A stretch of DNA of 62,966 nt, the filler included, from Stramenopiles sp. TOSAG23-6 (lineage: Eukaryota), in NCBI GenBank assembly GCA_900128565.1. It is 8 parts of 8 records of this genome, joined end to end, with 100 filler letters (N's around TTAATTAATTAA, not from the genome) between each part and the next. Parts side by side here need not be neighbours in the genome. Positions count along the whole stretch, not along the records: positions 23,483 to 35,087 come from LT636253.1; 7 more parts are not named here. One strand, given 5' to 3'. Under the pieces are notes generated by a model. That model did no database searches, was not told where the DNA came from, and saw nothing but the letters and a program-made list of their open reading frames with translations. The position numbers were made by a program, and so were the translations under genes. This document shows positions 1,596-62,872 of this stretch, in pieces (the first letter of the stretch is position 1; every line of letters starts with the position of its first letter).

Positions 1596-2550
1596 ATGTC
1601 ATATTTCCGGCGTTCATTGACTGCATGTATTGCTATACCTTTTTTGTTATTTATATTCTCATCGAGTCGAAGGGTTTTATTATTATCGATAAGTCTATCT
1701 TTCTGGGGTACTATAGAATGGGAACGTTTGCGAAGTGCCATCATTCGCCAGCTTGTAGAAAGTCTTGGTATGCACATGAATTATCCTACACCAACAAACT
1801 GTGATATTTTAGCTTTATTTTCTTCAACAGTGTGTGCTATTGTATGGTATATACCTAATTGGTTAATCATGTATCAGGTGAATAGTATTGTTGTTGCGAT
1901 TATTATAGTCCTACACGTGAGGCAGTGGATCAACTTTAGAATTGTACAAAGAGGGCCAAAGAAAACTGCGATAAAGTCACGCAATTTATTTGTGTACAGT
2001 ATATGCATCATGGCGATTGATATTTTTGGTATACTATACATACCTTTTTCAATATCGCACATTGTCTTATTATATTCTGATCCACAATTAGGTGAAAGTG
2101 GCATGTATGATTTATTTTTTTCAATTTCGATTTTATTTTTCGTACGAAATTTTGTACCTAACGATTTTTTTTCGAAATATTTTNCCAAAATACATGCATC
2201 ATCGTTTCAATAACTTAAAAAATCGAGTGAAAGTTTTAGAATATGTACTTCGTGAAGTCCTCAGTAATAATAATGAATCTGTAGGTAAAAAAAATAATAA
2301 AATGGACACGACTATTCTAAAAAAATTATTGACAAGTAGTATGGAAGGCCAACCTATATGTTCGGATGCAAGCATGGCTGTGAGTACACCGGGTAACATT
2401 GATGAACAAGTGTGTCTAGATAGTCCTTCTTTACACTTATCTTCTTATTTTCAAACTGAAAAAAAGGAAATTTCACACAATACAGATATTCCAGAAGCTG
2501 TAAGGTTGCCAAACAAAGATAGAATTGAACAAAATAGTAGCAATTTGTAG
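1596..2550 (+). CDS. Hypothetical multi-pass membrane protein with C-terminal coiled coil, 2 exons
   Basis: ORFs 1545..2213 and 2092..2550 join in frame (...GESG-MHHRFNNLK) on removing intron 2105-2195 (GTATGA...ATACAT). Confidence 0.7.
2105..2195 (+). other. Non-canonical GT-AT intron (family member)
   Basis: CAT|GTATGATTT...TTCGTACGAAATTTTGTACCTAAC...CCAAAATACAT|G; removal restores the frame. Confidence 0.8.
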
Positions 2551-6844: not shown

Positions 6845-8262
6845 ATGCGGAAACAGCGAATTGTCCTTGCGATTCTATTTGTTCCAACATCCATCATTAT
6901 TTACGACGTTGTGAAGTGTTTTCTATCAACTAACGACAACATCTCAGCTACAAGCAACCAAAATGAACATTTAGATGTACAAATTGACGCTGTTACTGCA
7001 ACTCGACTTGGTCTGAAACATTGTCCTGTTACAGAAAGATCAGCAGTTGTAGATAAAAAAACAAAAGACCGAGGCATGATAAATAATACGTCATTCTCTC
7101 TAAATAATACTTCAGTGAACAAAAACGAAATGTGTAGAAATCCAAATCCAAAAGTACATAATATTAATAGTGCATTACTAAAAGATATTGATGCAGGAGA
7201 TTGCTTTGATGGTCTAAAAAGTGGAAATCGTGTTTGTCTTCCTATAGCTTTAATCATAGGTGCTCAAAAAAGTGGAACGACGTTTGTTTTATTTTTTTTC
7301 AATTTGGAATTTATATTTTTTCGTACGAAAATTTGTACCTAACAATTTTTAATCCAAAAAAAAAAAATATTTTTTCACAAAACATGTTTATTCAGAGTTG
7401 GTTGACCAGACATCCCCAAATGAAGTTCTCAAAAAATAACGAGATGCATTTTTTCGATTTTTTACATAAATCTTTCAAGTCTCCAAAAGGTTTATTTTTT
7501 GATAGATTTTGGGATATTAATCATTTGCCATTGAGTGAGTCATGGAAGTTGTATCTCAGTCGTCAAGAAGAATTACTTCGGTTACCCGGTACATCACCTT
7601 GGCCTACTACAGGAAAACTTTTCATGTTCGATAAAACTCCTGCATATTTTGATACTGCAGATCCTTCCGACATTTTTGAAATGATGCCATCTGTACGATT
7701 GATACTTATATTACGTCAACCTAGTACTCGCTTTCATTCATCATGGCATCATTGCTTTAGATTTAATCGTTCCTCAACAAAAAAGTGCAGTTTGCATTCG
7801 GAAACTCCAGACGGATTTTTAAAACATTTACAAGAGTCTCTTTGTGTTGATTCATCTGGTACTTTGGTAATAAATGATAATGGCATAAATATTAGTCATA
7901 AAGCCACGACAATGAGAGGACTAAAACTTGGTCAATATCATTTTTATTTAGAAAAATGGATGCAAAATAGCAAATTTATACACGAAAATTTACTTGTTTT
8001 ATTTCATAAAAATCTTATTGAAGATCCATTCACAGCAATGCGTAAAATTGAAGATCATTTAGGATTGTACCATTTTGACTATAAAGGTCTTGCTTATCGA
8101 GATAATGATGCAATGTGGCGTTTGAAACCTTCATCATATGATAATATGTATACAGGAGCAGAAAATTATGAAATCCTTTCTAAGTCGAGGGAAATTTTAG
8201 ATACATTTTATGCTGATAGCATCGAACGACTTCGAAATATTAATGGTAATGTACCGTGGTGA
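6845..8262 (+). CDS. Type II membrane sulfotransferase (heparan sulfate 3-O-sulfotransferase-like), 2 exons
   Basis: Removing intron 7282-7385 gives the PAPS-binding motif IIGAQKSGTTFIQSWLTRHP, followed by EMHFFD, FDKTPAYF and LILILRQPSTRFHS. Confidence 0.88.
7282..7385 (+). other. Non-canonical GT-AT intron interrupting the 5'-PSB motif
   Basis: ACG AC|GTTTGTTTT...CACAAAACAT|G TTT ATT gives KSGTT-FIQSWL with correct motif spacing. Confidence 0.85.
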
Positions 8263-11005: not shown

Positions 11006-11654
11006 ATGTTCAACTTCCTCTCGTTCGTTAGATGCCACACCTCAAAAAGTATGCCTTTAAAGTACAATAATTACCAAAGATTATTATGGGGTGCTTCAAG
11101 TCGAAGCTTTGCTAATGGTATATTTTCTACGGTACGTCATACCTAACAAATTTTTTGAAATGTTTTTGAAACCACTTGTGTTTCTTCACATCTTCACACC
11201 TAACAAAGAATACTATAAAGTGTTCCCTAATGTTTATCAATTATTAATATGTTTACTTCAATTGCTACTCTCTACTTTTATAGGAAACACTCCCTTATCG
11301 TGGAGTTCTGGTAGATTTAGAAGCTGGTTACGATGGTGACACAGATCATTTCGAAACACAACTTGATGAATCAATTAAAGCTTGGAGAAACGAAAATAAA
11401 CTCAGTGCGTGGATAAAAATTCCTTTATCAAAATCGAATTTATTATCTATTGTAGCTCGGCATGGATTCCAATATCATCATGCAGCAGGAACAAGCGCAA
11501 CTCTCGTATCTTGGCTTAGCGAGAGTAAAGAAAACAAGATGTACGTTTTCAAAATTGAATTTCGAATTTAGTTTTTTTTGTATCAAATTTTGTACCTAAC
11601 GAATTTTTTTTTTTTCGCTAAAAAAAACAAATATTTTTTCACAATACATACCTC
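11006..11654 (+). CDS. Nudix hydrolase, NUDT6-like (pre-Nudix domain), 5' part; truncated at contig end
   Basis: Exons 11006-11131, 11284-11540 and 11650-: ...FETQLDESIKAWRNENKLSAWIKIP...GFQYHHA...SWLSESKENKIP. Introns 11132-11283 (GT-AG) and 11541-11649 (GT-AT). Not captured by the ORF track. Confidence 0.8.
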
Positions 11655-11754: not shown

Positions 11755-12832
11755 AAAATATTTCAAATTGTTTTTTGTTAGGTACAAAATTTCGTACGAA
11801 AAAAAAAATGGAATTTGAAAAAAAATAAAACATACATTCGTGAAAAAGGACTTGAAATGCTGCAATAATTACAATTGAGAGTGGAACTTGGACTAGAGTG
11901 AACAACTGTGTGTAACCTTTATCTTCCGGGCGATCTACATGGATTATGAAAAATATTTCAAAATTTAAAATCGNTANGGTANAAANTTTTTTNAAAAAAA
12001 AAATAAATTCGAAATTGAAATTGAAATGGAAAACATACAGCAGCGTAGAGAAGCTGAATAAATTGAGAATGTTTCCGAACTGGTTTCACAATCATTAGAA
12101 GCATCCACATAATAATATGAACATTCCAGAGACCCCATAACCAAGAATCTTCAGTTGGCATTGGGAGAAGTAAATCCAAAAGTGTTGGTAGGAGAAAAAA
12201 ACCAACATGTATTTTGGAAAAATATTTCAAAAAAAAAATCGTTAGGTATAAAATTTCGTACGAAAAAAAAATTCGAATTTGAAAAAAATAAAACCAACAT
12301 GAACACACTTACGAGTGTAACCAGTGTTCCAATTTTTCAAATAAACTCCAAGCCCCATTACTGCTTGAATTAAAAATAAGATAAAGTTTTTCAAGCCGAG
12401 ACCAATCCAAAACCATTCTTGATTTTTACGTCGTCCCCAATAGCCACCTTCCTGTGCTTCACAACTAGATTTATCCTTGAACTCACTTCTGTCTTTACAA
12501 ACACTTTTTAGGCAAATTGAACAGTGTACAGAAACGTCTAAAGTGAAGTACATGAGAAAAGCAAGCCATACCAATAAACCGCAAATAGACGCATAAAAGA
12601 TATACATTTGTTTAGCTCTAAGCCACTCCGCTGCTGGAGAAGACGAATCACCCCTTGCCTTGGCTCTTTCCATGTCAAGAGAAACCATCTTTTTACCCAT
12701 GCCCCGTTTTGCTTTTTCTTTGAAATCAACTGGCACGGCTACCACAACACTTTTCCCATTACTATCACCCGAATCCACATTGTTTAGAACTTCATCTAAT
12801 GCCATCGTAAATTTAATGATTGGCTGCACCAA
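11755..12832 (-). CDS. Membrane protein of the phytol/dolichol kinase (CTP-transferase-like) family, multi-exon, 3' truncated
   Basis: Spliced product includes GYTRKCVHVGFF and LYAAVDRPEDKGYT. Introns 12207-12298 and 11939-12038 are both GT-AT; a third starts at 11835. Confidence 0.65.
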
Positions 12833-13174: not shown

Positions 13175-15790
13175 ATGACTGAAACTGGATATGAATCCAG
13201 TAGGATGCGTCGAGCCGACTCTGGTTCTGGAGGAATGAATAGTATCAGTCAAAGAACTTCACGTTTAACCTTGGATTGTCATGACGACGGTGACTATCAT
13301 ATACAATACAATGATAATTTGAACGATGTGAAACTTGACGCTGCAGAAGTCGAAAGAAATATGATGGCAACATTTTTTACTCCACAGGATCAACCTGTCT
13401 TCCAACCTAAGCTTCCTTGCTCACCGTCCCCAGCAAAGAACCGCGCTTTTTCACATAGTCCACAGTGGACTGACAACGATATGGATACAAACGTAGAAGA
13501 GGGTTCTCCAGTTGATTGGGGAATTAATGATTCGGACGAGGAACAATATATAGGTGAATCTAGTGGTGCACCTTCCCCTTTTTTGAGTGACCCCAGTCCA
13601 GGAAGCCGGGCTGCTCCATCGAAGAAAAGTCGCGTCTTTACATCTTGTGGTAAACCAAATGTAGTTGGTTTACATACTGGTCGTCCACCTCTCAAAGCTC
13701 GCAATAATACATTTCGGATCCCGGAGAAAATCAACGAGGAAGAAGAATACGATGGTGACAATGTTGGGGAGCTCCGTGGACTGAAACTTTTCGCATCTCA
13801 GCCGGATAACTCAGCTCAAGAAAATTCCTCTACTGCCTCGAATTCTGATGAAATCTTTCTACCTCCACCCCCACCTCGCCCGCCATCTATGAAATCATCC
13901 AGTAATAATTATTCAATACGCCATGTAGAAAAACGTAAAAGAGGCCATCGCTCTACGTACGAGTACGTTTTCAAAATGAAATGTAAAAATAAATTCGTAC
14001 GAAATTTTGTACCTAACAAAACATTTGAATTTTTGAAATATTTTTTCATGATACAGATCAGGTCGTAGAAATGATGTTGGATTAAATAGACATTCAAATC
14101 ATCGAATTCGTAGAGGAGCTGGTTCGTCATTAATTTCAAGTCAAGGATCTGGTTTACGCCTATATCGAGATTTTGATGCTCATAAAAGAGTTGGTACTGT
14201 AGGTCTTCATCATTAATTTAAAAAAAAACATTTCGTACGAAATTCTGTACCTAACAAAAAACAAATTCTAAAAATATTCTTTTTACAACACATGGAGCAT
14301 TTTCGACGGTTTTTCGCTGTAGGCATGTATTAGATGGTGAATATTATGCAGTGAAACAATACCTCAGACACTTCAAAAGTCGTGCAGCGCGTGCTCTAGC
14401 TCTCCGCGAAGTAAGGACCATGGCTGCTCTTTGTTCAAATGGACATCCGCATTTATTGCGTTACGCTGGTTCTTGGGAAGATATTGGCACATTGCATATT
14501 CAAACGGAGTTTTGTGATGGTGGAAGTCTACAATCTAGATTTATTAAAGCAACATTAGAAAATTCATCTCTGGGTTGTATTAGTGACAAGAACTCTAATT
14601 CGAATGCATCAACATGTATGTTTTTTTTCAATTTTGTTTCAATTTCGAATTTAGTTTTTTTTTTTCGTACGAAATTTCATACCTAACAAAATATTTTTTA
14701 CGAAAAAAAAAAATATTTTTCCACAATATATCGTTTATAAAACCTTACACCCTTGGCCGTTCTGATTCGTATCATAGATCAATGCCATCATTACCTGCTA
14801 ACACTCGAACTCAAAAATCCTTCAATACTAATAATGACGTCAATGTTGTGGATACGATTGATGTTATACCAAAATTAAATGAAGCTAATTTAGTTGTTAT
14901 TCTACAACAAATGTACGTTTTCATTTTAATTTCGAATATATTGTTTTTTTTTTTTTTGAAATTTTTTTTTTTGAAATATATTTTTTTGAAATATTTTTTC
15001 ACAACAAATGGGATCTGCGTTAGAATATATGCATAAAGTTGGCTTTGTTCACTTAGATGTAAAACCTGAAAATATTTTATTATGTAAAGCCGGAAATAGC
15101 GAACTTGGTGGTGTCTGCAAATTAGGAGACTTTGGGATGACATTGCCTGTGGAGAAGGACGGTGGTCCGTCTTCAGCTACCGCTGCTGGATTGGTCGAAG
15201 GAGATAGTCGATATTTATCAATGGAAATTCTCCAAGAAAATTACCGATGTTTACCTGCTGCTGACATGTTCGCACTTGGTGCTACTGTATATGAACTTGC
15301 CCGCATTTCAATTGGTGGTACGCCTCTACCTCAAGATGGTCCTGAATGGTCAAGTTTGCGAAGAGGTGGAAGTAATGGTGGTCCTTTTCTGCCTACAAAA
15401 TCAAACAAATCTCAAATTTTTTCAAAAGTACAATTTCCTCTTGTCAATGAAGAGAATTGTTATTCTGAGGAATTTGTTACGCTTCTTCGACTTTTAATGC
15501 ACCCAGATCCGTGTACAAGACCTACTGCAAAGCAATTATTGCAACATCCTTTGGTATTGAGCAGTATTTGCGCAAAAACGCATACAATGCCAATTTTATG
15601 TTCAGGAAGTGATGACGAAGACACCCCACGAATGAACAAAAATAAATTAGGAATGTTTTTGAGCCAACAAGTTGGGAATGACCTTGCAGGTGAAGTAAAA
15701 ATTTGGAAACAGAAGCACGAAATCTTGAAACAGCAATTGGCAGTAGAAATGGGAAAGCGTGCAGAGATGGAACATAGTCTTTTTGACTAA
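13175..15790 (+). CDS. WEE1: Wee1/Myt1-family protein kinase, 5 exons
   Basis: After removing introns 13963-14056 (GT-AG), 14199-14293, 14616-14731 and 14913-15009 (GT-AT): RLYRDF...VGTGAFSTVFRCRHVLDGEYYAVK, HIQTEFCDGGSL, VHLDVKPENI, KLGDFG, EGDSRYL, ADMFALG. Confidence 0.9.
14199..14293 (+). other. Non-canonical GT-AT intron inside the kinase glycine-rich loop
   Basis: GGT ACT|GTAGGT...CAACACAT|GGA GCA TTT TCG restores GxGxFS; there is no AG between the branch motif and the exon. Confidence 0.88.
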
Positions 15791-21120: not shown

Positions 21121-23382
21121 ATGCAAGACGGTGATAATGTGTCGAAATCAAATCATCCCAGCGACAGTTGTTTGTTGCAATCTATAGATGCTTGTCTGCG
21201 CCTTGTTTCGTCTGGTACTAAAGAAAAAAGCAGTCATCAGTCTTTAGATTCAAAGCAGAAGATCTTGAGAGATTTATTCCAATCACTACAAGACTCCATC
21301 TCTCGAACTGCTGTAACAAATGATTATGGAGTAATGAGTTCAGTACCTCGCATATTAACCGTAATTATGGAAGACGAAACACTCTGTGCATTATCCCTCG
21401 ATTCTGGCGCTTTGGTGTCCTGTCTACTTCAATTTGTTACACTTCGAATACCGCAAGAACGCACGAACGATGGAGTAAAGGTGAAGTCCGTTAATGTACC
21501 TCGTCATCAACTAGTTGAACGAGGGCGCACTTGGGCATTATCAGTTCTCAAAACATTGCTTTCGTCTGAAAGAAGTACACAAAAACATCATCGCGAGTTG
21601 ATACAGAGGCCAGAATTTCCAGTTGGTGTTCAGCCTTTATTCGATTCTGTCTTTATTCAGAATGCTGTACACGCTTTAGTTGGTCAAATTGAGTATTTAA
21701 GACAAGAAACAGATACAATTGAAGCTGTGAAAGCTTTTCAACTAATCGTAAACGAATCAATTCCAATTCTGAGGTTAAGTTTCCATGTTCGTTTTCATCA
21801 TGAATTTCCATTTTTTTTTACTATAAAAATTTTGTACCTAACGATTTTTTTTTTTTCGGTAAAAAAAAAAAAAAAAACATTTTTTACAAAACATATTCGA
21901 ACGTACGAAAGGAATATATGGGAAAGTATATCAACTTTAATAGACACTATATTTCTATGGCATCCGAACCCTAACCCTAGAGATAAGAATGTACCTATTA
22001 CAAAAAGTTGGCTTTCTGATGACATTTTTTGTATTTATTTATATTTATCGTGTATGTTTTATTTTTTTTCAAATTCGATTTTTTTTCGTACGCAATTTTG
22101 TACCTAACGATTTTTTTTTTGAAATATTTTTACAAAATACATTGTCTTGGTTTCAACTTGGAATCTTATTATCTTTGGCATCAATTCAACGTTTTTCAGA
22201 TAAAGTTTTGAATCATTTAACACATAGAGTGTTAAAGTATCACCAACAAGTAAAGCAGTTGCAAGAAAGTCCATGCACGTTTTCATCATTCATTTCAATT
22301 TATATTTTATAATTATTTTTATACGAAATGTTGTACCTAACGATTTTTTTTCTAAAATATTATTTCACTTTACTTGGAACCGCATTGAATCAAAGCGAGT
22401 TCGTGAAGCACTATTTCATGATTCTACAAGTAGTAGTAGTAGTAGTAGTAGTAGTAGCAGCAGTGGCAATACCACTGAGAAAAATCAAAATCCAGAAAAA
22501 GATGAAAAATCAAATAGCAATTTTCATATAGGAATGAATATGGCTACAGAATCTGAGTCTGTTGATATAGAAGCATTAATACTACAAACTATTGAGCATA
22601 GTGCCCATGGCTGGGAGCATATCACACCTTCATTACTTCAATTAGCGGTACGACTTTTAGATATGACTGCGAAAACGTCGAGCTTTTCTATCAAGCAAAG
22701 ATCAAAAACATCAAATATAATATTGCCAGTTGATGTCCTCAATCGAACGAATTCAATGAATCACAAGAGTATAGATGCAAAAGAACTTGCGGTTTGTACT
22801 GGGTTTCGCATATTATTTTCTTTGATTCGCGTTCAAAAAGTTGTACGTTCTAGCATTCTCGAACATATATTGACACGTGTCATGTCACGAGCACCAACAG
22901 TTCGTCAATATATCGCATTACTAAAAGCTATTGCATTAGATACACCAATACTATTACTACCATTTTCTCAAAGAGTGAAAGAAAGTTTAGAATATTGTCC
23001 TTTACTTCCCTCCAGCGTTGCGAGTTTGCTGATTATTGCAGTTGAACCTGTTGTTTGCCTTCGTCCGGACCTTCGTGATTATACAGCAGTTATATTACGT
23101 AAAGCAATGTTTAAAAGAGACCCAGGTGCTCGTATTGTTGCAGTGGAAGGAATGATACGTCTTCTTGTACAATTAGAAAATCAAAGAAATTCAAATGAAA
23201 TGGAACGAAAAGCAGCGCAATTACGGTTTTGGTGTCAAATCTCTGGTTTATTCCGCCGGGTCCTTGGTCAACAATATAGTGTTAGAGAATCACTATATAC
23301 TGGTTTAGTACAGGTATATGAAAAAATCCCAGCTGTACGCCATGAAATTTTATCTTTATTGTTACCGCATGTTCAAAATTAT
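21121..23382 (+). CDS. FANCI: Fanconi anemia group I protein, 5' part, multi-exon
   Basis: HSAHGWEHITPSLLQLAVRLLD, LRKAMFKRDPGARIVAVEG and FRRVLGQQYSVRESLYTG resemble FANCI solenoid motifs. Introns 21787-21894, 22052-22142 (GT-AT) and 22275-22375 (GC-TT). Confidence 0.75.
22275..22375 (+). other. Non-canonical GC-TT intron
   Basis: CCA T|GCACGTTTT...TGTACCTAAC...CACTTTACTT|GG AAC joins two ORFs in phase 1. The acceptor register is taken from alignment to the family consensus. Confidence 0.6.
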
Positions 23383-23544
23383 NNNNNNNNNNNNNNNNNN
23401 NNNNNNNNNNNNNNNNNNNNNNNNNNTTAATTAATTAANNNNNNNNNNNNNNNNNNNNNNNNNNNNNNNNNNNNNNNNNNNNTTTTTTTTCGTACGAAAT
23501 TTTGTACCTAACAAATTTCGAATTTAATTTTTTTTACACTACAT

Positions 23545-25167
23545 GTTTCCTTAAAACAATGGAAAATTTAAATTTACGTAAAAATAATATAGGGTGTAAC
23601 CGACACCGACTTCGACCGAGCCAACTTCAAGAATTTTTACAAAAAAAATGTATAATTATTAACATAGATATTGCAAATCGTTTATGTAAGTGTTTTTTCC
23701 GAAATTTTCATTTTTTTGAATTTTTTTTTGTACGAAATTTTGTACCTAATCAATTTTTTAGATTTTTTCAAAATATTTTTCAACATTATATGTAAAATGG
23801 CAGGGACATTTAGTGATGGCAGAGTTAGTTTTGAAGAGCTAAAGGCTGCTGTGAGAGGAGCATCATTAATAATGGATGTATGTTTTAGTTTTTTTTCAAA
23901 TTCCATTTTTTTTTTTTTTTGAAAATTTTGTACCTAACAAAAAAACATTTGAAATATTTTTCCAAAATACATGCGGAATCGTTTCATATTTTATTAGCAA
24001 AAAAAGAAAATACTTTACATAAAACAAAAACCGAATTAGAAGCTCAAAATATAAAAAATATGGAAAATCATGCTGTTTTTATGAGTGAAGGAAAACAAAA
24101 TCTAAAATATGAAATTCAGGATTTACAGACTCAACATGTATGTTTTATTTTTTTTTTTTTTTACCGAAAAAAAAAAATCGAATTTATTTTTCATACGAAA
24201 TTTTGTACCTAACGAATTTTCAATTTTTTTTTTGAAATATTTTTCCAAAATACATGATGATATTATTCAACGAGTACATGAAATCAAAAGAAATGAATTT
24301 GAGAATTTAGAAAAAATGTATCAAAAACAGATTAAAGAAGCCACAGAAAGACATATAGGTTTTCTTTACGAATTTCAATTTTTTTTTTTTTTTTCATTTT
24401 GAATTTCAATTTTTTTTTTTTTTTTTTCATTATGAATTTCAATTTTTTTTTCATACACAATGGTATACCTAACAAAATAACACATAAAAGATATTTTCTT
24501 ACAATGTATGTTGAATCTTTAATGGAAATAGAGCAGAATAAAGCATTTAGAACACATGAGGGTACATTTTATTTTTTTTTTTCAATTATATTTTTTCGTA
24601 GTTAATTTTGTACCTAACAAAAAACAATTCGATATAATTTTTCATTACACAGCTTTAGATAATTGGAGAAAAGGAAGAGACGAAACCGTCAAGCGGTTAC
24701 AAATTTCCCATGGCAAAACATACGATTCAAAAAAACGATTTTTAGCATCAAAAAAACATGCAAAAATCAAAGCGTTAGAGAAGAAATTTCAACGTCAATT
24801 TGACACACATTCTGCATTATTGAAAAAAATGTATGTTTTTTTTTTTTTTTATATTTTTTTTTTTGCGTAAAAAAATGTTATACCTAACAAAAATTGTACA
24901 ATTTTTTTTATTTTAATTTTTTTTTTGTAGTACATTTTATACCTAACAAAAATTGTACATTTAAAAAAATATATTTTCATACAAAACATTCATCAAACAA
25001 ATATAAAACATAGATTAGAAGAAAATATTTCAATTTTACGGAATGAACGTGAGCTGTTGCTTTCTCAAATGAGGAAGGAAATCAGTGGAAATTCTATTAA
25101 AAAGGAAGAAATTCAAGAAGTAAACAATTCATATGAAAACAAAACTATTTGGGAGTCTGATGTATAA
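23545..25167 (+). CDS. 3' part of an EF-hand-like/coiled-coil protein with 7 short exons
   Basis: Continuous frame after removing introns 23686-23791, 23878-23972, 24138-24255, 24355-24509 (AT-AT), 24562-24652 (GT-AG) and 24831-24989; DGRVSFEEL motif; stop at 25165-25167. Confidence 0.7.
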
Positions 25168-25374
25168 TATATAAGATTTCTTGTGTTTAAAAAGGAAGAA
25201 ATTCAAGAAGTAAACAATTCATATGAAAACAAAACTATTTGGGAGTCTGATGTATAATATATAAGATTTCTTGTGTTTAAAAAGGAAGAAATTCAAGAAG
25301 TAAACAATTCATATGAAAACAAAACTATTTGGGAGCCCCAGGAGTCTGATGTATAATATATAAGATTTCGTGTG
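25097..25374 (+). repeat. Three tandem 90-bp copies spanning the last codons, stop and start of the 3' UTR
   Basis: Unit starts at 25097, 25187 and 25277; the third copy has a 9-bp insertion. Confidence 0.9.
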
Positions 25375-25555
25375 AATAGTGTGAATGGGCTAAATAGTAT
25401 ATAATCTTATATACGATAACTATTGCCAACGGCATTGTATTCATTGAACCAAAACATTTAGAAAAAAAAAAAAAAGAATAAAAAAATTGTTTTTTTTTTC
25501 ATACGAAATTTTGTACCTAATGAAAAACAAAAAAAACGTTTCGAACCTTACTTTA

Positions 25556-26389
25556 TTATTTCTTACTTGTTGTATTTAATATATCCATAACAGAACGAAC
25601 TCGTTTTGAACTCTCTCTACAACACTGTTTCCATTGAGCATCATCTAAACCAGGGCCACCAGGTTTGTGTACAGCACAGATATGCCCGAGTGAGTTGCGA
25701 ACTATAGTGACTTTGGAATTTCCAAATAATTTTTCTTCCTTACCTGACAGATCAATAATAATTTTGTCATCAAATCGGCCAAAAGTTGACGAAATTGGTA
25801 TATGTTTAATAGTCAATGGTGTTGATGTACCATTTGGTGTCATTACGATACATCCTGTTTCTTTATCTAATTCAACGCAAGGAATTCGTGTATTGCGCAA
25901 TGCGGCTAAAGATGCAAGTAATGCACAGTCTTCAACGTTACCATCATGGTTTAAACACAACACATCAAGACGAATAATCCATGAATGCTTTCCCTTATTG
26001 ATACACAACGATTTCAAATCAATAGCCTCAGTACTTGAAATGCTTCGGGTAATAAACTGTGATAGAGTAATAGCTTCCTCTGGGGACGCACCTAACGTAA
26101 AGCGCTCAGCACAAATTGGCCACAACTGCACTTGAACATCAATTTCACCCTGATCCGCTGCATCCTGCTTTGGTTGTATAATTTCAAGTTTTACACCAGC
26201 GACTACTGCAGTATTCCCGATGTATGCTAATGCAGAACCATCTGCTGTTGATATTGAACCTTCACTGACAGAAATGTGACGAACGTCCAAGAGATTTCTT
26301 CCATCCGGTCTGACACTCTTCTCCACAAAACGACGATAAAACTTTTCTGGGTATATCCGTTGAAATGCAGCTACACTCTCACATGCCAT
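25556..26389 (-). CDS. EXOSC8: Exosome complex component RRP43 (RNase PH family)
   Basis: FQRIYPEKFYRRF...RPDGR...GSISTADGSAL, DLKSLCI..GK.SW, LNHDGN, HKPGG. Confidence 0.9.
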   Translation of the reverse strand: MACESVAAFQRIYPEKFYRRFVEKSVRPDGRNLLDVRHISVSEGSISTADGSALAYIGNTAVVAGVKLEIIQPKQDAADQGEIDVQVQLWPICAERFTLGASPEEAITLSQFITRSISSTEAIDLKSLCINKGKHSWIIRLDVLCLNHDGNVEDCALLASLAALRNTRIPCVELDKETGCIVMTPNGTSTPLTIKHIPISSTFGRFDDKIIIDLSGKEEKLFGNSKVTIVRNSLGHICAVHKPGGPGLDDAQWKQCCRESSKRVRSVMDILNTTSKK

Positions 26390-27087
26390 TTCAAGTATGC
26401 TTGTGAGTAATCTACAATAATAATAATAATATCTAAATTGTTTATAGTATAGTACAACTTGTACTTATCACAAAAACGACGTACTTACTATAAGTTACTT
26501 CTTCACTATATTATTGATTGCATTGATCATCTCTCACCAAAATTTTCTACTGACTCATTTTTGAAGCATTTTTGAAAAACAAACAAACATTTTTCAATGA
26601 TTTCTGTGGAGTTGGAACCCGGTAACAGTAACAAATTCAACAATGATAATTAACAATGATAATTTAGTATTTCTGGTAATAGTAATTACATATATGGTAT
26701 AGTAGTAGGAACTATAGATAGGCCAAAAGGTGGCGGAAAACGACATGGAAAGCAAATCAGACAATGCTTTGAACATCAACAAAGATGACGTTTTTTATCA
26801 GAATTTGTCAGACTTAGACTAGACATCCATAATTTGTGCATGGAATTGCTAAACTAGGCAACACAAACACACTTTGTCAATTTAAACTTTATTTTTATTA
26901 AATCAATATAATATCTTTGATATAATCACTTAATTTCTTATAATATACATGTTTAAGATGAAGATTAACTAAGTTATTTAGTTCATTTTTGTTTAGTACA
27001 TAAATGTACGCTCGTCGGGCTCCTTTATACTTTTCGAAAATTCCTTCACCATATATTGGAACTTTCTTAGTTATTTTGTTTTGAATC

Positions 27088-27810: not shown

Positions 27811-28174
27811 TTTACTTTATATACTGATATTTAATTTCACGATGTTTTTTGTAGTGTTTCATAAATGTTATATTATTGAAATGTACATAATCTGAACGAT
27901 AAAATATTTTATATTAGTTCCGCCAAAGTATTGCAACTACTTTTTTTTCGATAGAGTTCAAAAAATAAAGGTCCTTTGAAGTGTTTTTAAAACACTTCCT
28001 AAAAATATAAAACAAACCTGCTTTGCTTATAATATTGAAACTGTAAAAAAAACAAAAAACGAACAAGACAACTTTTTAGTACTACTTTAATTCCACTTAA
28101 CTTAGGTGAAATTCCTTCACTGTAGTGAGTGTATAATACTATAGAAATGAATCAGTAGAGAAATATAAAGTAGG

Positions 28175-29443: not shown

Positions 29444-29662
29444 ATATTTATATATGATACGTAGAGTACAAAAATTGTCCATTATATACGTCATACCCAA
29501 TAAAACAAATTATATATGTACGAATTTGATATAGATTTAGTCTTTAGAAATTCAGAAATATAGTATAATAATAATAATATTAAATTTTTGTTTTTTTTTT
29601 ATTTTGTTTTTCTTTTTTTTTAATTTCTTTTGATTTTATTAAACACTTAATTAAAAGGCCCC

Positions 29663-32157: not shown

Positions 32158-32722
32158 CTAGCTAGGGTATGTCTTCCAAATAACTTCCATTCGTACATCT
32201 TTTGGATTTCGTGTACCGTCACGAAGTTGCTGCTCAAAGATTTCAATCATTTTCTTAGAATCAAGCGTCGGTGGCTCCCAGCCTAACCCTTTATTATATG
32301 CTTCTAAAGTTGAAAAAAATTGACTTTGAGTGGCGACACATTCTGATGCCGCCATGAAGTTTAGGAAAATATTTTTTTACATTGGATGAATTGCTTTGTT
32401 AGGCACAAAATTTGGTTCAAATAAAAATTATAAAAACAATTTGAAAATTGAAAGCTTACATGACCCAATATTCAGATTGAGGTAGCTCGCCATATTCGCG
32501 ATAGTGTAGATTTGTATTAGTATTCCTTTTGCAATTTTTATTTGCCTCATTATCATAAACTAGATTGCTTAGAATAGTTTGCAATACATCATCTTTGATT
32601 TGTTCTTCTTTTCTTGAAACATCGAGTTTTTTCACCTGTTGTTTTTCATCCCCCATCTTAATGTCTGTTGACATCTGTAGACTATGTATATCTGTATCAT
32701 CGATATTATTACTCGGGTTCAT
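32158..32722 (-). CDS. Hypothetical protein, 2 exons
   Basis: ORFs 32456..32722 and 32158..32355 join (EYWVM-AASEC) through a diverged GT-AT intron at 32354-32459 (GTAAGC...GTGCCTAAC...CTTCAT). Confidence 0.7.
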
Positions 32723-32938
32723 TTAATTAATGAATTATAAAAGACTCAACTAGGAATGGTTTCGTTGTTTTTATCTAGTTCTCTTGTCCTTTTCCTGCTT
32801 CTAGTGGTCTTACAACCGCTTTTGGTTCTAATTTGATTACCTTTTATTATTCAATGTAATAATTATTCATAAAAGATAAAGGGCATCAATGATATAAAGG
32901 CATCGGATCTCTGGTATATGATATTGCAGAGATCGATA

Positions 32939-33285: not shown

Positions 33286-34306
33286 ATGCATCCATTCTTG
33301 CGCTTGTCTTCAAAAACAGTGGCTGTAGGAGGTGGTACAACCTTGTTTTTGTATGGTTCTTTTGTCGCCGCGGACTCATGGCAAGGTCGCCCTACAGCCC
33401 TCCCAACATGGTTGAGACCTCTCCATCCATTTGAGAGTTATGCTCATTATAAACAGCTTCGAAGAAGAGAAAGTCAAGTTGTTCCCCCCAAAGTTGATCA
33501 AAAATGGGCACGAACAACTGCTGCTATAGAAATCGCCATGGATACTGCTTTCAGGGGGCCCGTATGGAAAGATGCACAATCTGAAGCTAAAAAGAGATGG
33601 TCTCAAGCAAAACTTAGAATAAAAGATAAAAGAAATAAATTTCGTCAAAAAGTAAAACATGTAAAGAATCGAATGAAACAAACGGTAACATCATCATCAT
33701 CATCATCTACTTCTCTTGGTACGAATAAAGAAATGACTGATGATGATTGGAATACATATTTGACAGAAATAAATGCTCAACATGATGATTCTCAGTGGAA
33801 TAAAAATGAAAATGGAAATCATGATTCAAGTCAAATGGAGTTGACAGGAAACCTAAACAAAAACCCAAAAAAAAATAATAATGAAAACATTGAGAATGTT
33901 GAGAATTTTGATCAAACATTGGAAAAAAAAATGAATCCCAATCCGTTCAAAAAAAACGAAGATCCCCCCAAAAAACAAAGTTTCTTGTCAAAATTACGTG
34001 AACGCTGGCAAGATAGTTTGACAAAATTAGCACCTCTTGGTGAGTCATCGAATGGAAATCATGTAGAAATTTTTTGTGATCCTGACGTAGGTTTTTTTTT
34101 TTTAAAATTTTTTCGTACGAAATTTTGTACCTAACGAAAAAAAAAAAATGAAAACATTTTGAAATTTTTTGAAATTTTTTTTGTACCTAATGATTTTTTT
34201 TTCTTGAATATGGTACACTACATATGCGTATTTTGAAAGTATATGGCAATCTATCGATAAAGCGAATCAACGTGTTTGGTTTGAAATATATACATTAGAG
34301 GATGAT
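33286..34306 (+). CDS. Phospholipase D / cardiolipin synthase-like protein, 5' part
   Basis: Removing intron 34087-34225 gives GNHVEIFCDPDAYFESIWQSIDKANQRVWFEIYTLEDD, typical of a PLD/Cls first domain; the HKD motif is not reached. Confidence 0.7.
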
Positions 34307-34418
34307 GTTTGTTTTATTTTTTTTTTTACAAAAAAATCGATTTTTTTTTTCGTACGAAATTTTGTACCTAACAATTTTTTTTTTAAAGAAAATTTTGAAA
34401 TATTTTTCCAAAATACAT

Positions 34419-45582: not shown

Positions 45583-46573
45583 ATGTGTAAGAAAATGCAA
45601 GAAGTCAAAGTCGGTTGTGAGTCGAAGAATGTACAGCATGCGAATCGTCGAAGGATGCTGCTTAGGCGAAAAGAAGCCGAGGAGAAGTATGTCCGAAGAA
45701 TGGAACTTGGCCGTGATGATGCGAATCCGCCACCACGTAAATTAGCTGTTCAACCTCGTGATCCGCTCTGTCCTGTTTCGCCGTTGAAATCTGTTAAGCA
45801 ATTCGTTGATCGCATGAAAAAAGCCAAGTCTAAAATGTATGTTTTAATTTTCAATTTCGAATTTGTTTTTCGTACGAAATTTTGTACCTAACAAATTTTA
45901 GTGTTTTTTTTTGAAATATTTTTCCAAAATACATCCCAACAAAGATAGACTTTTCGGATAAGCGCGTACGATTAAAATTGCATAACCGTTACGTGCGTAA
46001 GAAAAAGAGAGCGGCTATGGCTAAAGCATGTTCTCGACAGAGAATATCAGCGCGCAAAAACGAGCTTGATTCTCTCAGGATGTTTTATTTTTTTTAATTT
46101 CGAATTTATTTTTTCGTACGGAATTTTGTACCTAACAAAAAAACGAAAACAAAAATATTTTTTCACAATATATGGGCAATGATGCAGGCCAGAGTGGCTG
46201 ATGCTTTAGCTGCTGAGTTGGCAGAAGAAGAAGCTCAAACAACTCACAACGAAGCAGAAAAAAGCTCAGCAAATGTCAAAGCTTGTGCTCTGATGAGAAT
46301 CTCGGAGCGCAGAGATGAGCTTGATTCGCTCAGGATGTTTTATTTTTTTAATTTCGAATTTATTTTTTTTTTTAATTTCGAATTTATTTTTTCGTACGGA
46401 ATTTTGTACCTAACAAAAAAACAAAAACAAAAATATTTTTTCACAATATATGGGCAATGATGCAGGTCAGACTGGCTGCTGCTATTGATGCTGGTTTGGA
46501 CGAAGAAGATGCCAAAACAACTCACGACGAAGCCTTTCTACTGGCTCAGCAATACCAAAAGGTGTTTGCTTGA
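45583..46573 (+). CDS. Hypothetical basic/coiled-coil protein, 4 coding exons with a duplicated exon-intron unit
   Basis: Frame is continuous after introns 45837-45934 (GT-AT), 46078-46173 and 46333-46451 (GG-AT); a probable 5'-UTR GT-AG intron lies at 45364-45560. Confidence 0.7.
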
Positions 46574-60071: not shown

Positions 60072-61354
60072 CCAACAACAATACATATATTGTGAAAAAA
60101 TTTTTTTTTTTTTTTTTTTGTAAAATTTGATTTTTTTTTGTTAGGTACAAAATTTACTATGAAAAAAAAAATTTAAAAAAAAATTTAAAAAAAATTTAAA
60201 AAAAATTTAAAAAAAAATTCAAAAAAAAATTCAAAAAAAAAACATACACGAAAAGACTCTCCAACAAAACGAAGTGTCATCAAATAAAATGTAACAAACA
60301 ACAGCCGATCCAATAATTACAAATATACCAGCAACAGCAATTCCTCCTCTAGTAATCCATGTAATGAAAAAAAAAAATCAAAAAAAATCAAAAAAAATTT
60401 TGTTAGGTACGAAATTTTTTTACGAAAAAAAAAAAAAATCAAAATTCAATTTTTTTGTAAAAAAAAAAATAAAATCATACATAATAATTTTTCCAATAAT
60501 TTCAAATCTTCTTCACGCTGTTCTTCTTTTGTCATTTTTTCCATTTCAGCTTTTGATTTAGCAGTTGATGATGTAGTACGTACAGCAAAAATACCCAAAA
60601 TTGAACAGAAAATACCGAGACCAGCAATCCAGAAAGGTAATGCCATGGCATGTATTATGAAAAATAACAAAAATGTCCGAAAAAAAAAATTGTTAGTTAT
60701 AAAAAAAAAANGTCCNGAAAAAAAAAAAAAAATTCTGAAATTTTTTTTTGTTCCAATATAAAAAAAATATAAAAAAAATATAAAAAAATATAAAACATTA
60801 TACAACATACATTCCATAATTGATCCATACCTAAATGAGGAATTTTACGATCCATTGGAAAACTTGGAAATGGTGATAAATTATGGACATCCTATATTGT
60901 GAAATTTTTTTTTTTTTTTTTTTTAAATTTGATTTTTTTTGTTAGGTACAAAATTTACTATAAAAAAACAAAATTTAAAAAAAAACATGAAAAAAAAAAA
61001 AAAACATACATGTCCATCGTGTATCTTAGGAAAGCATGAGGCGGTAGCACCATAAATTGTGGTATATAATTGCTGAAATTTTGACCATGCTTCAGTACCT
61101 TGAGTAAACTCAGCTGCGCCGGAAGGGACAACATTCTCAATATCAATACATGCATTTATATGAGTTGGATTTGTAAAAACATTTTTTGCACATTTTGATT
61201 TAACAAATAATTTCATTTGTTTGCCATCATCTTTTAAAAAGAAAGTGTTAAATACGTTTTGTCCAAAATTGACTCCGCATGATCCAGCTGACATTCCACA
61301 AAATCTTGATCCATCAGTGGTTCCATTACAAGAAGCCACAGGTAGTGATTTACA
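60072..61354 (-). CDS. Internal exons of a membrane protein, probably H+-translocating pyrophosphatase
   Basis: Spliced (introns 60892-61009, 60650-60810, 60359-60480, 60085-60247): AMALPFWIAGLGIFCSILGIFAVRT...LLWITRGG...WRVFSCIVVG resembles mid-protein H+-PPase helices, preceded by a Cys-rich insert. Confidence 0.55.
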
Positions 61355-61447: not shown

Positions 61448-61651
61448 TTTTTTACCTAAAAAAAAAAAANNNNNNNNNNNNNNNNNNNNNNNNNNNNNNN
61501 NNNNNNNNNNNNNTTAATTAATTAANNNNNNNNNNNNNNNNNNNNNNNNNNNNNNNNNNNNNNNNNNNNTTTTTTTTCAATTTCGAATTTATTTTTCGTA
61601 CGAAATTTTGTACCTAACGATTTTTGTTTGAAATATTTTTCCGAAACACAT

Positions 61652-62872
61652 GGAATGTAAAGATGAAAGCTACAGTTACAAAACTTGAAATTCGTTCATT
61701 GGTAACAATTAAAAGCTTTACTTCAGTTCCACTTCAATTGCTTCCACTTTTACATTTTCAACGGGCCTCAAACGACAATTTGAAAAATACAAAAAATACA
61801 AAAAAAAATACAAAAAATACAAATAAAATGATGAAATTTTTTAATCGAGTCAAAGAAATTTCAAAAATTACAAAACATATGGATAGTACACATAACCCAC
61901 AGACAAATCCGAAACATTTGAATGAAATTCATGAGTGTACTCGTTTTTGTTTAGATGTATGTTTTCAAAAAAAAACAAAAATTTTAACTTTTTAATTTTT
62001 TTCGTACGAAATTTTGTACCTAACAATTTTTTTTTTTTTTTTAAATATATCCTCAACAAATATGCTTTTGAAACGTATTCTTTACCATTATCTGATGCGG
62101 TTGCATCTGCAATTGTTGTAAAACCAATGTTACATTTCATGCAAAATAAACAATCCAACACCACTAACCCTAATCCTGCTCATCATTCAAACCATGGTGC
62201 AAAAAAAAATACAAAAAATACAAAAAATACAAAAAATATGCATGTTTTATTTTTTTTCAAATACGAAATTTTTTTTATAGTAAATTTTGTACCTAACAAA
62301 TTTAAGTTTTTTTTTTTTCAAATATTTTTCCAAAAAATATGAGTAATGTACAGTACGACGCGGCAGTGTCATTTAGTCAACCTATACCGATTCAACAACC
62401 CATTAGCACAGACGAAACAAAACACACTACAACAACATTTAATAAACAGTCTAACCCTAACCCTAATGATAATGAAATAATAGAAGCTTATCGACTCAGT
62501 AGTAATGTTTTATTATCAAAAATTGGATATACATGTATGTTTTATTTTTTTGAAAATTTGAATTGTTTTTTTTTATAGGAAATTTTGTACCTAATGAATT
62601 TTTTATTTTTTTGAAAATTTGAATTTTTTTTTTTTTTTTATAGGAAATTTTGTACCTAATGATTTTTTTTTGAAATATTTTTCCAAAATACATTTCATTC
62701 ACATGTTTCTGTAGTAAAACACGTGCAGGGCGATATTGAAATATCATTTTTTGCTCCAATTACACTTAATAATTTTTTACCATATGAAGTCGAATTTAGA
62801 CTGCAATATTTGGATAAAGATAAACTTGATTTCATTGATAAAGTAAAATGGATCGTTAAGGACAAAAGACAT
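61652..62872 (+). CDS. Internal exons of a probable VPS13-family protein
   Basis: Introns 61957-62063, 62240-62340 (GC-AT) and 62535-62693; the last exon ISFFAPITLNNFLPYEVEFRL resembles VPS13 adaptor-binding repeats. Confidence 0.45.

What the first reader, a model, noticed from the sequence alone, without database searches (positions are those of the whole stretch)
23683..24510. Intron ends are complementary with compensatory changes: TIR-like/hairpin introns flanked by a duplicated AT
Seen: the consensus AT|GTAT(G)TTT pairs with AAAATACAT, with G+5 bulged. Variants co-vary: 23686 AT|GTAA(G)TGTT with AACATTATAT; 24355 CAT|ATA with TGTAT|G (G-C pair replaced by A-U); 7282 and 21787 GTT with AAC; 32459(-) CAT|GTAAG with CTTCAT|G. 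Some copies (22275, 14913) do not pair. Equivalent reading: an element GTATGTTTT...AAAATAC with short TIRs and an AT target-site duplication that supplies the acceptor. Established: MITE-derived introners can take a splice site from their TSD, and euglenid nonconventional introns use end-pairing. Inference: an introner family targeting (C)AT(G), or structure-guided splice-site definition.
Basis: partly seen in the sequence, partly recalled or inferred. Interest (0 to 1): 0.85.

Follow-up and report, generated by a model that had tools for sequence, protein, structure and literature searches.

The report
Mobile intron family with GT–AT ends
Almost every intron in this stretch of an uncultured marine protist is a copy of one roughly 100-base element that starts with GT but ends with AT instead of AG, so it looks like a self-spreading intron; the claimed compensating base pairs between its two ends are no more than chance.

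Summary
The region 23683-24510 holds four introns: 23686-23791, 23878-23972, 24138-24255 and 24355-24509. They belong to one stereotyped family with 43 profile hits in 63 kb. Introns of unrelated genes are up to 93% alike. Of 29 complete copies, 26 begin with GT, and 25 end with AT, 3 with AG and 1 with TT. Reading frames, Pfam coordinates and nine of nine sulfotransferase homologues that align without a gap across one junction support these non-AG borders. RNA evidence of splicing was not obtained.

The end complementarity is real only in the consensus. 73.1% of cells pair, against 71.6% after shuffling (86 of 500 shuffles reach this). Double changes number 5 against 4.3 expected. Only 7 of 16 folds close the ends. 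The compensatory changes are therefore not supported.

The two junctions do share copy-specific direct repeats of 0-12 nt. Three of 28 reach 9 nt or more, against 0 of 756 cross pairs, with permutation p about 2e-5. "AT" is only their shortest form. Best reading: an introner carrying U2-type signals and a non-AG 3' end, inserted with duplication or microhomology. This is a new variant of a known kind.

The parts
23686..23791 (+). family intron, GT..AT (GTAAGT type 5' end), phase 1; 7-nt junction direct repeat
23878..23972 (+). family intron, GT..AT, phase 0; consensus-type ends
24138..24255 (+). family intron, GT..AT, phase 0
24355..24509 (+). family intron with A at +1 (AT..AT) and internal tandem duplication
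24562..24652 (+). family intron, GT..AG
24831..24989 (+). family intron, GT..AT, two branch-site units (internal duplication)
2105..2195 (+). family intron, GT..AT
7282..7385 (+). family intron, GT..AT, inside the sulfotransferase P-loop; exact 104-nt removal supported by 9 of 9 homologues
11541..11649 (+). family intron, GT..AT by family alignment; exon 2 cut by assembly gap
13963..14056 (+). family intron, GT..AG (kinase gene)
14199..14293 (+). family intron, GT..AT (kinase gene)
14616..14731 (+). family intron, GT..AT (kinase gene)
14913..15009 (+). family intron, GT..AT; 9-nt exon-1 tail repeated as intron tail; no CYTAAY motif; Pkinase profile resumes at the acceptor
21787..21894 (+). family intron, GT..AT (FANCI gene)
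22052..22142 (+). family intron, GT..AT (FANCI gene); acceptor supported by homologue HSP edge
22275..22375 (+). family intron, GC..TT (FANCI gene); donor supported by homologue HSP edge
34087..34225 (+). family intron, GT..AT, two branch-site units
34307..34418 (+). family intron, GT..AT
45837..45934 (+). family intron, GT..AT
46082..46171 (+). family intron in a tandemly duplicated exon; GT..AT 90 nt (a GG..AT 96-nt placement is also in frame)
46337..46449 (+). paralogous copy of the previous intron, with an internal duplication
61957..62063 (+). family intron, GT..AT
62240..62340 (+). family intron, GC..AT; 10-nt exon-1 tail repeated as intron tail
62535..62693 (+). family intron, GT..AT, two branch-site units; 6-nt junction repeat
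60892..61009 (-). family intron, GT..AG
60359..60480 (-). family intron, GT..AT
60085..60247 (-). family intron, GT..AT by family alignment; exon 2 cut by assembly gap
32354..32459 (-). diverged family intron, GT..AT
12207..12298 (-). family intron, GT..AT; 12-nt direct repeat spans both junctions (intron head = exon-2 head for 9 nt)
23483..23544 (+). 3' part of a family intron cut by a contig end
35188..35275 (-). 5' part of a family intron cut by a contig end
58392..58473 (+). 5' part of a family intron cut by a contig end (same sequence as 46889-46970 on the minus strand, part of a perfect inverted duplication)
61570..61651 (+). 3' part of a family intron cut by a contig end
11755..11835 (-). 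5' part of a family intron cut by a contig end
42531..42624 (-). degenerate family copy at the 3' end of ORF 42608-45136 (A at +1, ends CAG)
25490..25528 (+). partial family copy (branch-site core only) outside any long ORF

Best explanation
The introns are copies of one short non-autonomous mobile intron, an introner, with median length 106 nt. Each copy carries its own yeast-like 5' splice site (GTATGT), a branch-site box (TACCTAAC) 34-56 nt from the 3' end, and a T-rich tract. The 3' end is usually ...ACAT or ...ATAT instead of ...YAG.

Shown here: the copies form one family. Every copy that could be assigned sits in genes in the sense orientation. Removing exactly GT...AT restores the reading frames and conserved protein motifs. 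The two junctions of a copy share copy-specific direct repeats of variable length.

Inferred: the spliceosome removes these copies from RNA and must therefore accept AT, and occasionally AG or TT, at the 3' splice site. New copies arise by DNA-level insertion at (C)AT|G-like sites. That insertion duplicates target bases, or uses microhomology between the element's ends and the target, so that the end of the element is sometimes rewritten to the target's sequence.

The complementarity of the two ends is a property of the master sequence. It may be a short terminal inverted repeat or a coincidence of GTAT with ATAC. It is not maintained by compensatory change.
For: Family. The 9-mer branch box occurs 46 times with at most 1 mismatch, against 5.85 expected. 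A profile built from 23 introns finds 43 hits. The alignment shows conserved blocks well beyond splice signals. Mean pairwise identity is 0.71, and nearest neighbours reach 0.93 between introns of different genes and contigs. Seven of the assembly's contig joins fall inside family copies. In seawater metagenome X3, bins holding typical copies have summed contig depth of 1,126-27,867, against 0-10.9 in bins without a copy. This is not a copy number.

Borders. In 27 of 29 complete copies the chosen borders join ORFs of at least 31 codons on both sides, and the other 2 are cut by gaps. 5' ends are GT 26, GC 2, AT 1. 3' ends are AT 25, AG 3, TT 1. At 7281|7386, nine of nine sulfotransferase homologues align contiguously across the junction, and none of the five equivalent border placements ends in AG. 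The Pkinase profile stops at position 90 in exon 14294-14614 and resumes at position 109 at residue 2 of the exon starting at 15011. FANCI homologue P0123 residues 326-369 cover exactly the exon 22143-22274.

Recent insertion. Intron phases 0/1/2 are 10/8/11. Junction direct repeats total 12, 11, 10, 7, 6, 5, 5, 5 ... nt. Three of 28 reach 9 nt or more, against 0 of 756 cross pairs. Permutation gives p = 2e-5 for the sum and 0 of 50,000 for the count at 9 nt or more. Taken separately, exon-1 tail versus intron tail gives p = 1e-4, and intron head versus exon-2 head with 4 or more matches occurs in 4 of 29, p = 7e-4. Where an intron end departs from the family majority, the base equals the exon base at the other junction in 29 of 76 cases (38%), against 26% for other introns' exons.
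Against: No RNA evidence of splicing. The one read-laying run listed no contig that skips an intron cleanly, and 277 joints were not shown. One RNA contig (X6 record 9) runs 20 nt from the exon into intron 24831.

Mobility is inferred from similarity only. No empty site, no presence/absence polymorphism and no autonomous partner were seen.

Most junction repeats are only 1-3 nt. Only 5 of 28 reach 6 nt or more, so a single mechanism with a fixed duplication length does not fit.

The sample is 29 complete copies from eight small contigs of a fragmentary assembly. That assembly contains at least one artefactual inverted duplication.

A 3' splice site ending in AT or TT has no precedent that I could find as a majority class. 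An error in my border model therefore cannot be fully excluded for copies without a homologue check.
Confidence: 0.7

Rival explanations
1. Structure-guided splicing. Pairing of the two intron ends, plus the flanking CAT/ATG, brings the junctions together and defines the 3' cut, as in euglenid nonconventional or intermediate introns.
For: Consensus ends are complementary in the proposed register: 73.1% paired against 23.5-59.9% in slid registers. Seven of 16 minimum-energy folds close the ends. RNAduplex energies of native end pairs are slightly better than permuted pairs, p = 0.034. The 3' dinucleotide is not fixed (AT, AG, TT). Each copy has 2-6 unused AT dinucleotides between the branch site and the used end, so something other than the dinucleotide must pick the site.
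Against: There is no covariation. Paired cells are 73.1% against 71.6% shuffled (86 of 500 shuffles reach it), and double changes are 5 against 4.3. Fixed-register permutations give p = 0.12-0.32. Nine of 16 folds leave the ends open, and z-scores mostly lie within 1.6 sd of shuffles. Whole subfamilies carry mismatches in the stem. The introns have a strong U1-type 5' site, a branch box and a T-tract, which euglenid nonconventional introns lack (passages of PMC6221363 and PMC11282704).
Confidence: 0.12
2. A classical TIR DNA transposon (MITE) with a fixed AT or TA target-site duplication, moved by a DDE transposase such as the DDE_3 gene in the window.
For: Short imperfect terminal inverted repeat of about 7-10 nt in the consensus. 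AT occurs at both junctions in 20 of 29 copies. An intact-looking DDE_3 ORF lies at 40961-42259. TIR elements make up about 82% of classified introner families (passage of PMC12130899).
Against: Junction repeats vary from 0 to 12 nt. The AT-AT coincidence is no more than expected from the two consensus frequencies (20 against 19.0). No inverted repeats resembling the intron ends flank the DDE_3 gene. A TA duplication does not fit the geometry, because the spliced product keeps only CAT|G. The inverted repeat tolerates G-T oppositions: 6 of 23 copies have G+1 opposite T-3.
Confidence: 0.12
3. A retroposed (SINE-like) element, or insertion by double-strand-break repair. Copies enter by target-primed reverse transcription or by microhomology-mediated repair, which gives variable-length duplications. 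This refines the insertion step of the best explanation and is not a separate identity.
For: Variable repeat lengths with the intron end rewritten to the target's sequence are seen at 14913, 62240 and 12298(-), with 10, 11 and 12 nt. On the antisense strand the T-rich 5' part of the intron reads as an A-rich 3' tail. Short telomere-like hexamer pairs inside ORFs are strongly enriched, 6 against 0.03 expected. From my own knowledge, such insertions in other organisms are ascribed to break repair.
Against: No reverse transcriptase or endonuclease ORF was found among the 26 long ORFs scanned. Most repeats are 1-3 nt, short for target-primed reverse transcription. No 5'-truncation series was seen.
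Confidence: 0.3
4. Old, ordinary introns whose similarity reflects an unusually demanding spliceosome (convergence or constraint), not mobility.
For: The best-conserved blocks include the splice signals: 5' site, branch box and T-tract. In some reduced eukaryotes introns share long motifs (recalled, not checked here).
Against: Conserved blocks also cover sequence with no known splicing role. Identity reaches 93% over about 90 columns. Internal tandem duplications of the unit occur in 5 introns. Phases are even at 10/8/11. Junction repeats are copy-specific. The assembly breaks inside the copies and their word depth is very high.
Confidence: 0.06
5. DNA-level eliminated sequences (ciliate-IES-like, bounded by short direct 'pointers') rather than RNA introns.
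For: Short, AT-rich, intragenic elements bounded by variable short direct repeats.
Against: Every copy that abuts an ORF is in the sense orientation and none was seen antisense inside an ORF. Three short hits (25490, 34835, 35026) could not be assigned. The copies carry canonical spliceosomal 5' and branch signals. Long ORFs are open under the standard code.
Confidence: 0.03

Closest known systems
Introners of Micromonas, Aureococcus and about 200 other species (Gozashti et al. 2022, 2025: passages of PMC12130899 read; Huff et al. 2016 recalled only)
   Same: A high-copy, near-identical intron family at unrelated gene positions, with splice signals carried by the element and short repeats at the junctions.
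   Different: The 2025 survey's curation text lists only AG and AC as 3' splice sites (passage). Here 25 of 29 copies end in AT. The junction repeats vary in length instead of matching a fixed target-site duplication. Whether this family is in their datasets could not be checked, because supplements are closed.
Amoebophrya introner elements (Farhat et al. 2021, PMC7789003; passages read)
   Same: Repeated non-canonical introns with an inverted repeat joining the 5' and 3' ends and 3-5 nt direct repeats overlapping the exon/intron borders. No transposase link.
   Different: Those have 8-20 nt inverted repeats, many families and highly variable splice dinucleotides. Here a single family has a conserved GTATGT 5' site, a branch box and a T-tract, with only about 7-10 nt of imperfect complementarity and no covariation.
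Euglenid nonconventional and 'intermediate' introns (passages of PMC6221363 and PMC11282704); hemistasiid diplonemid noncanonical introns (PMC12621601, sections 5 and 9 read)
   Same: Non-AG ends, end complementarity, TSD-like repeats at the junctions and a suspected MITE origin.
   Different: Those lack conserved borders, a U1-complementary 5' end and a polypyrimidine tract. The diplonemid ones have G+C-rich ends (CT-CG, TG-GC and so on). The present introns are A+T-rich and keep all U2-type signals except the AG.
Fritillaria borealis non-canonical introns (Henriet et al. 2019; only as cited in PMC11282704)
   Same: MITE-derived introns removed by a U2 spliceosome that tolerates non-canonical ends.
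   Different: There it is mainly the 5' end that departs (AG-AN patterns, as quoted). Here the 5' end is canonical and the 3' end departs.
Recent Daphnia intron gains flanked by short direct repeats, ascribed to double-strand-break repair (Li et al. 2009; recalled, not read)
   Same: Variable-length short direct repeats at both junctions of new introns.
   Different: Those inserts are unique sequences, not copies of one element.
U12-type AT-AC introns
   Same: A non-GT-AG reading, AT...AC, is possible for some copies by shifting the borders 2 nt.
   Different: That shift works in only 11 of 29 copies (from the table). The 5' site is not ATATCC-like. The branch box lies 34-56 nt from the 3' end, not about 10-20 nt (the U12 consensus is recalled).

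Membership tests
Introner (mobile spliceosomal intron family) | Many copies of recognisably the same sequence at non-homologous gene positions | tested here: met
   43 profile hits in 62,966 nt. Nearest-neighbour identity is up to 0.93 between unrelated genes.
Introner (mobile spliceosomal intron family) | Copies interrupt coding sequence in the sense orientation and their removal restores the frame | tested here: met
   27 of 29 complete copies join ORFs of at least 31 codons on both sides, and 2 are cut by gaps. Homologue continuity was shown at 7281|7386 in 9 of 9 homologues.
Introner (mobile spliceosomal intron family) | Removal from RNA shown by transcripts | tested here: inconclusive
   Read laying on three metatranscriptomes listed no clean intron-skipping joint, and 277 joints were not shown.
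Introner (mobile spliceosomal intron family) | Signs of insertion (target-site duplication or similar) | tested here: met
   Copy-specific junction direct repeats: 3 of 28 reach 9 nt or more against 0 of 756 cross pairs, p(sum) = 2e-5.
Introner (mobile spliceosomal intron family) | Presence/absence polymorphism or lineage-specific positions | not testable with these tools
   No relatives were found: the core 22-mer gave 0 loci in metagenome contigs and genome contigs, and the FANCI exon gave no relatives.
TIR-MITE (e.g. Tc1/mariner-derived) | Terminal inverted repeats kept at DNA level | tested here: inconclusive
   About 7-10 nt of imperfect complementarity in the consensus. 73% of cells pair, but with G-T oppositions and whole subfamilies mismatched.
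TIR-MITE (e.g. Tc1/mariner-derived) | Fixed-length target-site duplication (TA for Tc1/mariner) | tested here: not met
   Junction repeat lengths range from 0 to 12 nt. TA geometry does not give the observed spliced product (sequence).
Euglenid-type nonconventional intron | No conserved borders and no U1-complementary 5' end | tested here: not met
   GT at the 5' end in 26 of 29 copies, with GTATGT-like consensus.
Euglenid-type nonconventional intron | Stable end-to-end pairing maintained across copies | tested here: not met
   No covariation. Ends are closed in 7 of 16 folds.
Euglenid-type nonconventional intron | Excision as full-length circles, independent of the conventional pathway | not testable with these tools
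   Needs RNA of the organism.
U12-type (minor) intron | 5' /[AG]TATCCTT and a branch site close to the 3' end | tested here: not met
   The 5' consensus is GTATGTTTT. The distance from the branch A to the 3' end is 34-56 nt. The U12 consensus is recalled.

The most novel reading that the evidence does not exclude
GT-AT is the default intron type of this free-living marine protist. Nearly its whole intron complement descends from one mobile element, and its major spliceosome routinely cuts after AT, tolerating AG and TT, rather than requiring AG. The matching AT at exon positions -2 and -1 and at the 3' end could mean that one altered RNA or protein reader recognises both. Candidates are the part of U1 that pairs with the exon tail, U5 loop 1, or the small U2AF subunit. 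If so, the 3' splice-site code itself has shifted in step with an intron invasion.
Probability: 0.4. Interest if true: 0.85.

Novelty: new variant of a known kind. Interest (0 to 1): 0.62.

Why it matters
Introners are now seen as a main source of new introns, but the 2025 survey text that I read lists only AG and AC as 3' splice sites for them. This family keeps every U2-type signal except the AG. It appears to supply almost all introns of its host, which was also detected in recent seawater metagenomes. That would give a natural system for asking how the 3' splice site is chosen without AG. It would also let one ask how a spliceosome and an invading element adapt to each other. The variable, copy-specific junction repeats are a direct clue to the insertion chemistry, which is unknown for many introner families. 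On the negative side, the attractive 'compensatory hairpin' story does not survive a control and should not be carried forward without a genome-wide test.

Tried and rejected
1. Whole genome and earlier findings were not available.

2. Rfam and tRNA scans of the window found nothing, so no snRNA could be inspected.

3. A collection scan with a 17-mer of the core gave 6 single matches in viral contigs. I took them for chance and did not follow them. The 22-mer core gave 0 loci in metagenome contigs and 0 in genome contigs. The FANCI exon gave no relatives in metagenome contigs.

4. Read laying on X6, X7, X8 (RNA) and X3 (DNA) produced listed joints that are all repeat-to-repeat artefacts with short sides of 18-31 nt. 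No clean intron-skipping joint was listed. This is no evidence either way about splicing.

5. The AT-AC (border shifted by 2 nt) and U12 readings were rejected, because the shift works in only 11 of 29 copies and the signals do not fit.

6. A Tc1/mariner link was rejected. No inverted-repeat pair around the DDE_3 gene matches the intron ends.

7. A diplonemid origin was considered. Hemistasiid noncanonical introns have G+C-rich ends and no conserved sites. The best MYST hits are not euglenozoan: Hemimastix, a MAST single-cell assembly and amoebozoans at 74-81%.

8. The taxon stays unresolved. The FANCI best hit is an unnamed EukProt protein at 48%, and cluster look-up added no names.

9. Paper searches with motif words and 'GT-AT introns' returned only unrelated primer and virus papers. 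Searches for introners in single-cell genomes found no description of this family. The Tara stramenopile single-cell paper and a 2026 preprint on single-cell genomes mention introns only in passing. Gawryluk et al. 2016 is not held.

10. A word-indexed homologue search for the sulfotransferase found nothing. The full HMMER search did find homologues.

11. A scan for GT..AG introns joining ORFs of at least 60 codons found only 2 candidates outside family copies, and both are unconvincing.
Full report
**What the window is.** The 62,966 bases are eight small contigs joined by 100-nt N linkers at 11655, 23383, 35088, 46789, 58474, 59972 and 61470. G+C is 22-41%. Long ORFs are open under the standard code. 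They encode ordinary eukaryotic proteins:
- a MYST acetyltransferase, protein kinases, PPR, LRR, ankyrin, UBX/SEP, DUF4116 and a dual-specificity phosphatase;
- FANCI, an RNase PH subunit, TGT, a sulfotransferase and one DDE_3 transposase.

No whole genome is held. The source runs are two small DNA runs of 2015. Unique parts of the contig 23483-35087 recur at 97-100% identity in a seawater metagenome of 2024, for example 317 nt with 0 differences and 983 nt with 8. The organism is therefore an uncultured marine eukaryote. Its lineage stayed unresolved.

**The observation.** The region 23683-24510 holds four introns: 23686-23791, 23878-23972, 24138-24255 and 24355-24509. These introns are copies of one element, not four unrelated sequences.
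- The branch box GTACCTAAC occurs 46 times with at most one mismatch, against 5.85 expected.
- A profile built from 23 aligned introns finds 43 hits in the window.
- The alignment is conserved well outside the splice signals.
- Mean pairwise identity is 0.71, and nearest neighbours reach 0.93 between introns of different genes and contigs.
- Contig ends fall inside copies.
- In metagenome X3 the bins that hold typical copies have summed contig depths of 1,126-27,867, against 0-10.9 elsewhere. The bin with the diverged copy 32354-32459 is not raised, at 5.19. The tool warns that this is not a copy number.
- A scan for conventional GT..AG introns joining long ORFs found nothing convincing outside the family.
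- The one likely GT-AG intron, about 11049-11274, contains a decayed family core.

**The borders.** I fixed 29 complete copies by coordinates.
- In 27 of them the borders join ORFs of at least 31 codons on both sides. The other two run into assembly gaps.
- For the tandem paralogues at 46082 and 46337, two in-frame placements exist: GT-AT of 90/113 nt, or a 6-nt longer one starting GG. The statistics used acceptors 2 nt further on for these two, which does not change any conclusion.
- 5' dinucleotides are GT 26, GC 2 and AT 1. 3' dinucleotides are AT 25, AG 3 and TT 1.

Three junctions were checked against proteins.
- At 7281|7386, nine of nine sulfotransferase homologues from the full HMMER search align without any missing or extra residue across the nucleotide-binding loop. 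Exactly 104 nt must therefore go, and none of the five equivalent placements ends in AG.
- In the kinase gene the Pkinase profile covers positions 10-90 in exon 14294-14614. It resumes at position 109 at residue 2 of the exon that starts at 15011.
- FANCI homologue P0123 residues 326-369 match exactly the 132-nt exon between acceptor 22143 and donor 22275.

RNA proof is missing. The single read-laying run listed only repeat-driven joints.

**The hairpin.** The consensus ends are therefore complementary. Dealing the 3' letters out anew among copies gives 71.6 +/- 1.4%, and 86 of 500 shuffles reach the observed value. Double changes are 5 cells against 4.3 expected. My permutation of whole 3' ends among 29 introns gave p = 0.32, 0.18 and 0.12 for fixed registers, and 0.034 for free duplex energy. 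Seven of 16 folds close the ends and nine do not. Z-scores run from +0.49 to -3.0.

The quoted compensations (23686, 24355, 7282, 21787) are matched by uncompensated variants. Copies 34307 and 12298(-) have GTT opposite TAC. The GTACG subfamily has C opposite A. Copies 2105 and 60480(-) have A at +6. I conclude that the complementarity belongs to the master sequence and is not maintained.

**What does co-vary.** The two junctions of a copy resemble each other as direct repeats. The tail of exon 1 tends to equal the tail of the intron, and the head of the intron tends to equal the head of exon 2.
- Total exact repeat lengths are 12, 11, 10, 7, 6, 5, 5, 5, 4, 4, then 3 or less (n = 28).
- Cross pairs never reach 9 (0 of 756).
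- Permutation gives p = 2e-5 for the sum, 0.008 for the count at 6 or more, and 0 of 50,000 for the count at 9 or more.
- Each side is significant alone, p = 1e-4 and 7e-4.
- In the long cases the intron end departs from the family consensus exactly where the exon at the other junction does (14913, 62240, 12298(-), 23686, 7282).
- Over all copies, 29 of 76 departing positions equal the own exon base, against 26% for other introns' exons.

The plain 'AT' is no more linked copy by copy than its two frequencies predict: 20 observed against 19.0 expected.

**Mechanism.** The element carries a U1-type 5' site, a branch box and a T-tract. Every copy that could be assigned is in the sense orientation, and none was seen antisense in an ORF. 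Three short hits could not be assigned. Phases are even, at 10/8/11. This is what an introner looks like. The variable junction repeats, with ends rewritten to the target, argue for insertion with duplication or microhomology at sites that resemble the element's own end-to-end junction, (C)AT|G(T). They argue against a transposase with a fixed stagger. Whether the intermediate is DNA or cDNA is open. No reverse transcriptase was seen among the 26 long ORFs scanned, and the DDE_3 gene shares no ends with the element.

How the 3' end is chosen is also open. The branch A lies 34-56 nt upstream. Each copy has 2-6 unused AT dinucleotides in between. 22 of 28 copies have no AG there.

**Comparison.**
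- Introners are established in about 200 species, but the curation text of the 2025 survey lists only AG and AC as 3' splice sites.
- Amoebophrya introner elements combine inverted and 3-5 nt direct repeats with non-canonical ends, but come in many families without conserved splice signals.
- Euglenid and hemistasiid noncanonical introns lack the U2-type signals seen here.

I found no description of a GT-AT majority class in my searches. Supplements and several subscription papers could not be seen. I file this as a new variant of a known kind.

Noticed in passing
46889-49251 and 56111-58473: The contig 46889-58473 ends in a perfect 2,363-nt inverted repeat (100% complementary). This is most likely a chimera of whole-genome amplification or assembly, not biology. 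The intron fragments at 46889-46970(-) and 58392-58473(+) are thus one sequence counted twice.
   Followed up: partly
21967, 28796-28852, 59095(-), 62453: Two-unit telomere-like hexamer runs (AACCCTAACCCTA, at most 1 mismatch) occur 6 times against 0.03 expected. Four of the five places shown lie in frame inside long ORFs in different frames, read as NPNP or TLTL. They look like interstitial telomeric insertions in coding sequence. From my own knowledge such insertions are elsewhere ascribed to break repair.
   Followed up: partly
40961-42259 (+): An intron-less ORF with a DDE_3 (IS630/Tc1-mariner-type) transposase domain, E = 2.6e-25. No inverted-repeat pair around it matches the intron ends, and no link to the intron family was seen.
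   Followed up: partly
e.g. 23734-23750, 24197-24213, 45876-45892: Directly upstream of the branch box most copies can form a small hairpin of 6 pairs with a 4-nt loop. It appears in most folds. Variants of the upstream arm (ATAC, ATAG) are not compensated, so it may only reflect the repeated GTAC.
   Followed up: no
24355-24509, 24831-24989, 34087-34225, 46337-46449, 62535-62693: Five introns contain internal tandem duplications of part of the unit. Three of them have two branch boxes. The element grows by local duplication after insertion.
   Followed up: partly
joints 23974>24136 and neighbours, metagenome X3: In the seawater DNA run, 9 contigs join the 3' end of one element to the 5' end of another with only 2-3 bases between (short sides of 22-24 nt). 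This could be adjacent insertions, tandem copies, a circle-like junction or an assembly-graph artefact. It stays unexplained.
   Followed up: no
about 11049-11274 (+): A likely 226-nt GT..AG first intron after a short ATG exon. Its middle holds a decayed copy of the family's branch-site core, so an old copy may have moved its 3' site to a downstream AG.
   Followed up: partly
24355 (+) and 42624 (-): Two copies have A instead of G at intron position +1. Their 3' ends (TAT and CAG) do not change in step.
   Followed up: no
23500-34500, RNA runs X6-X8: Contigs of three metatranscriptomes hold the intron element at far higher summed depth than the flanking exons, for example 1,422-4,965 against 0-20. 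This could be unspliced RNA, stable excised introns or DNA carry-over, and it was not resolved.
   Followed up: no
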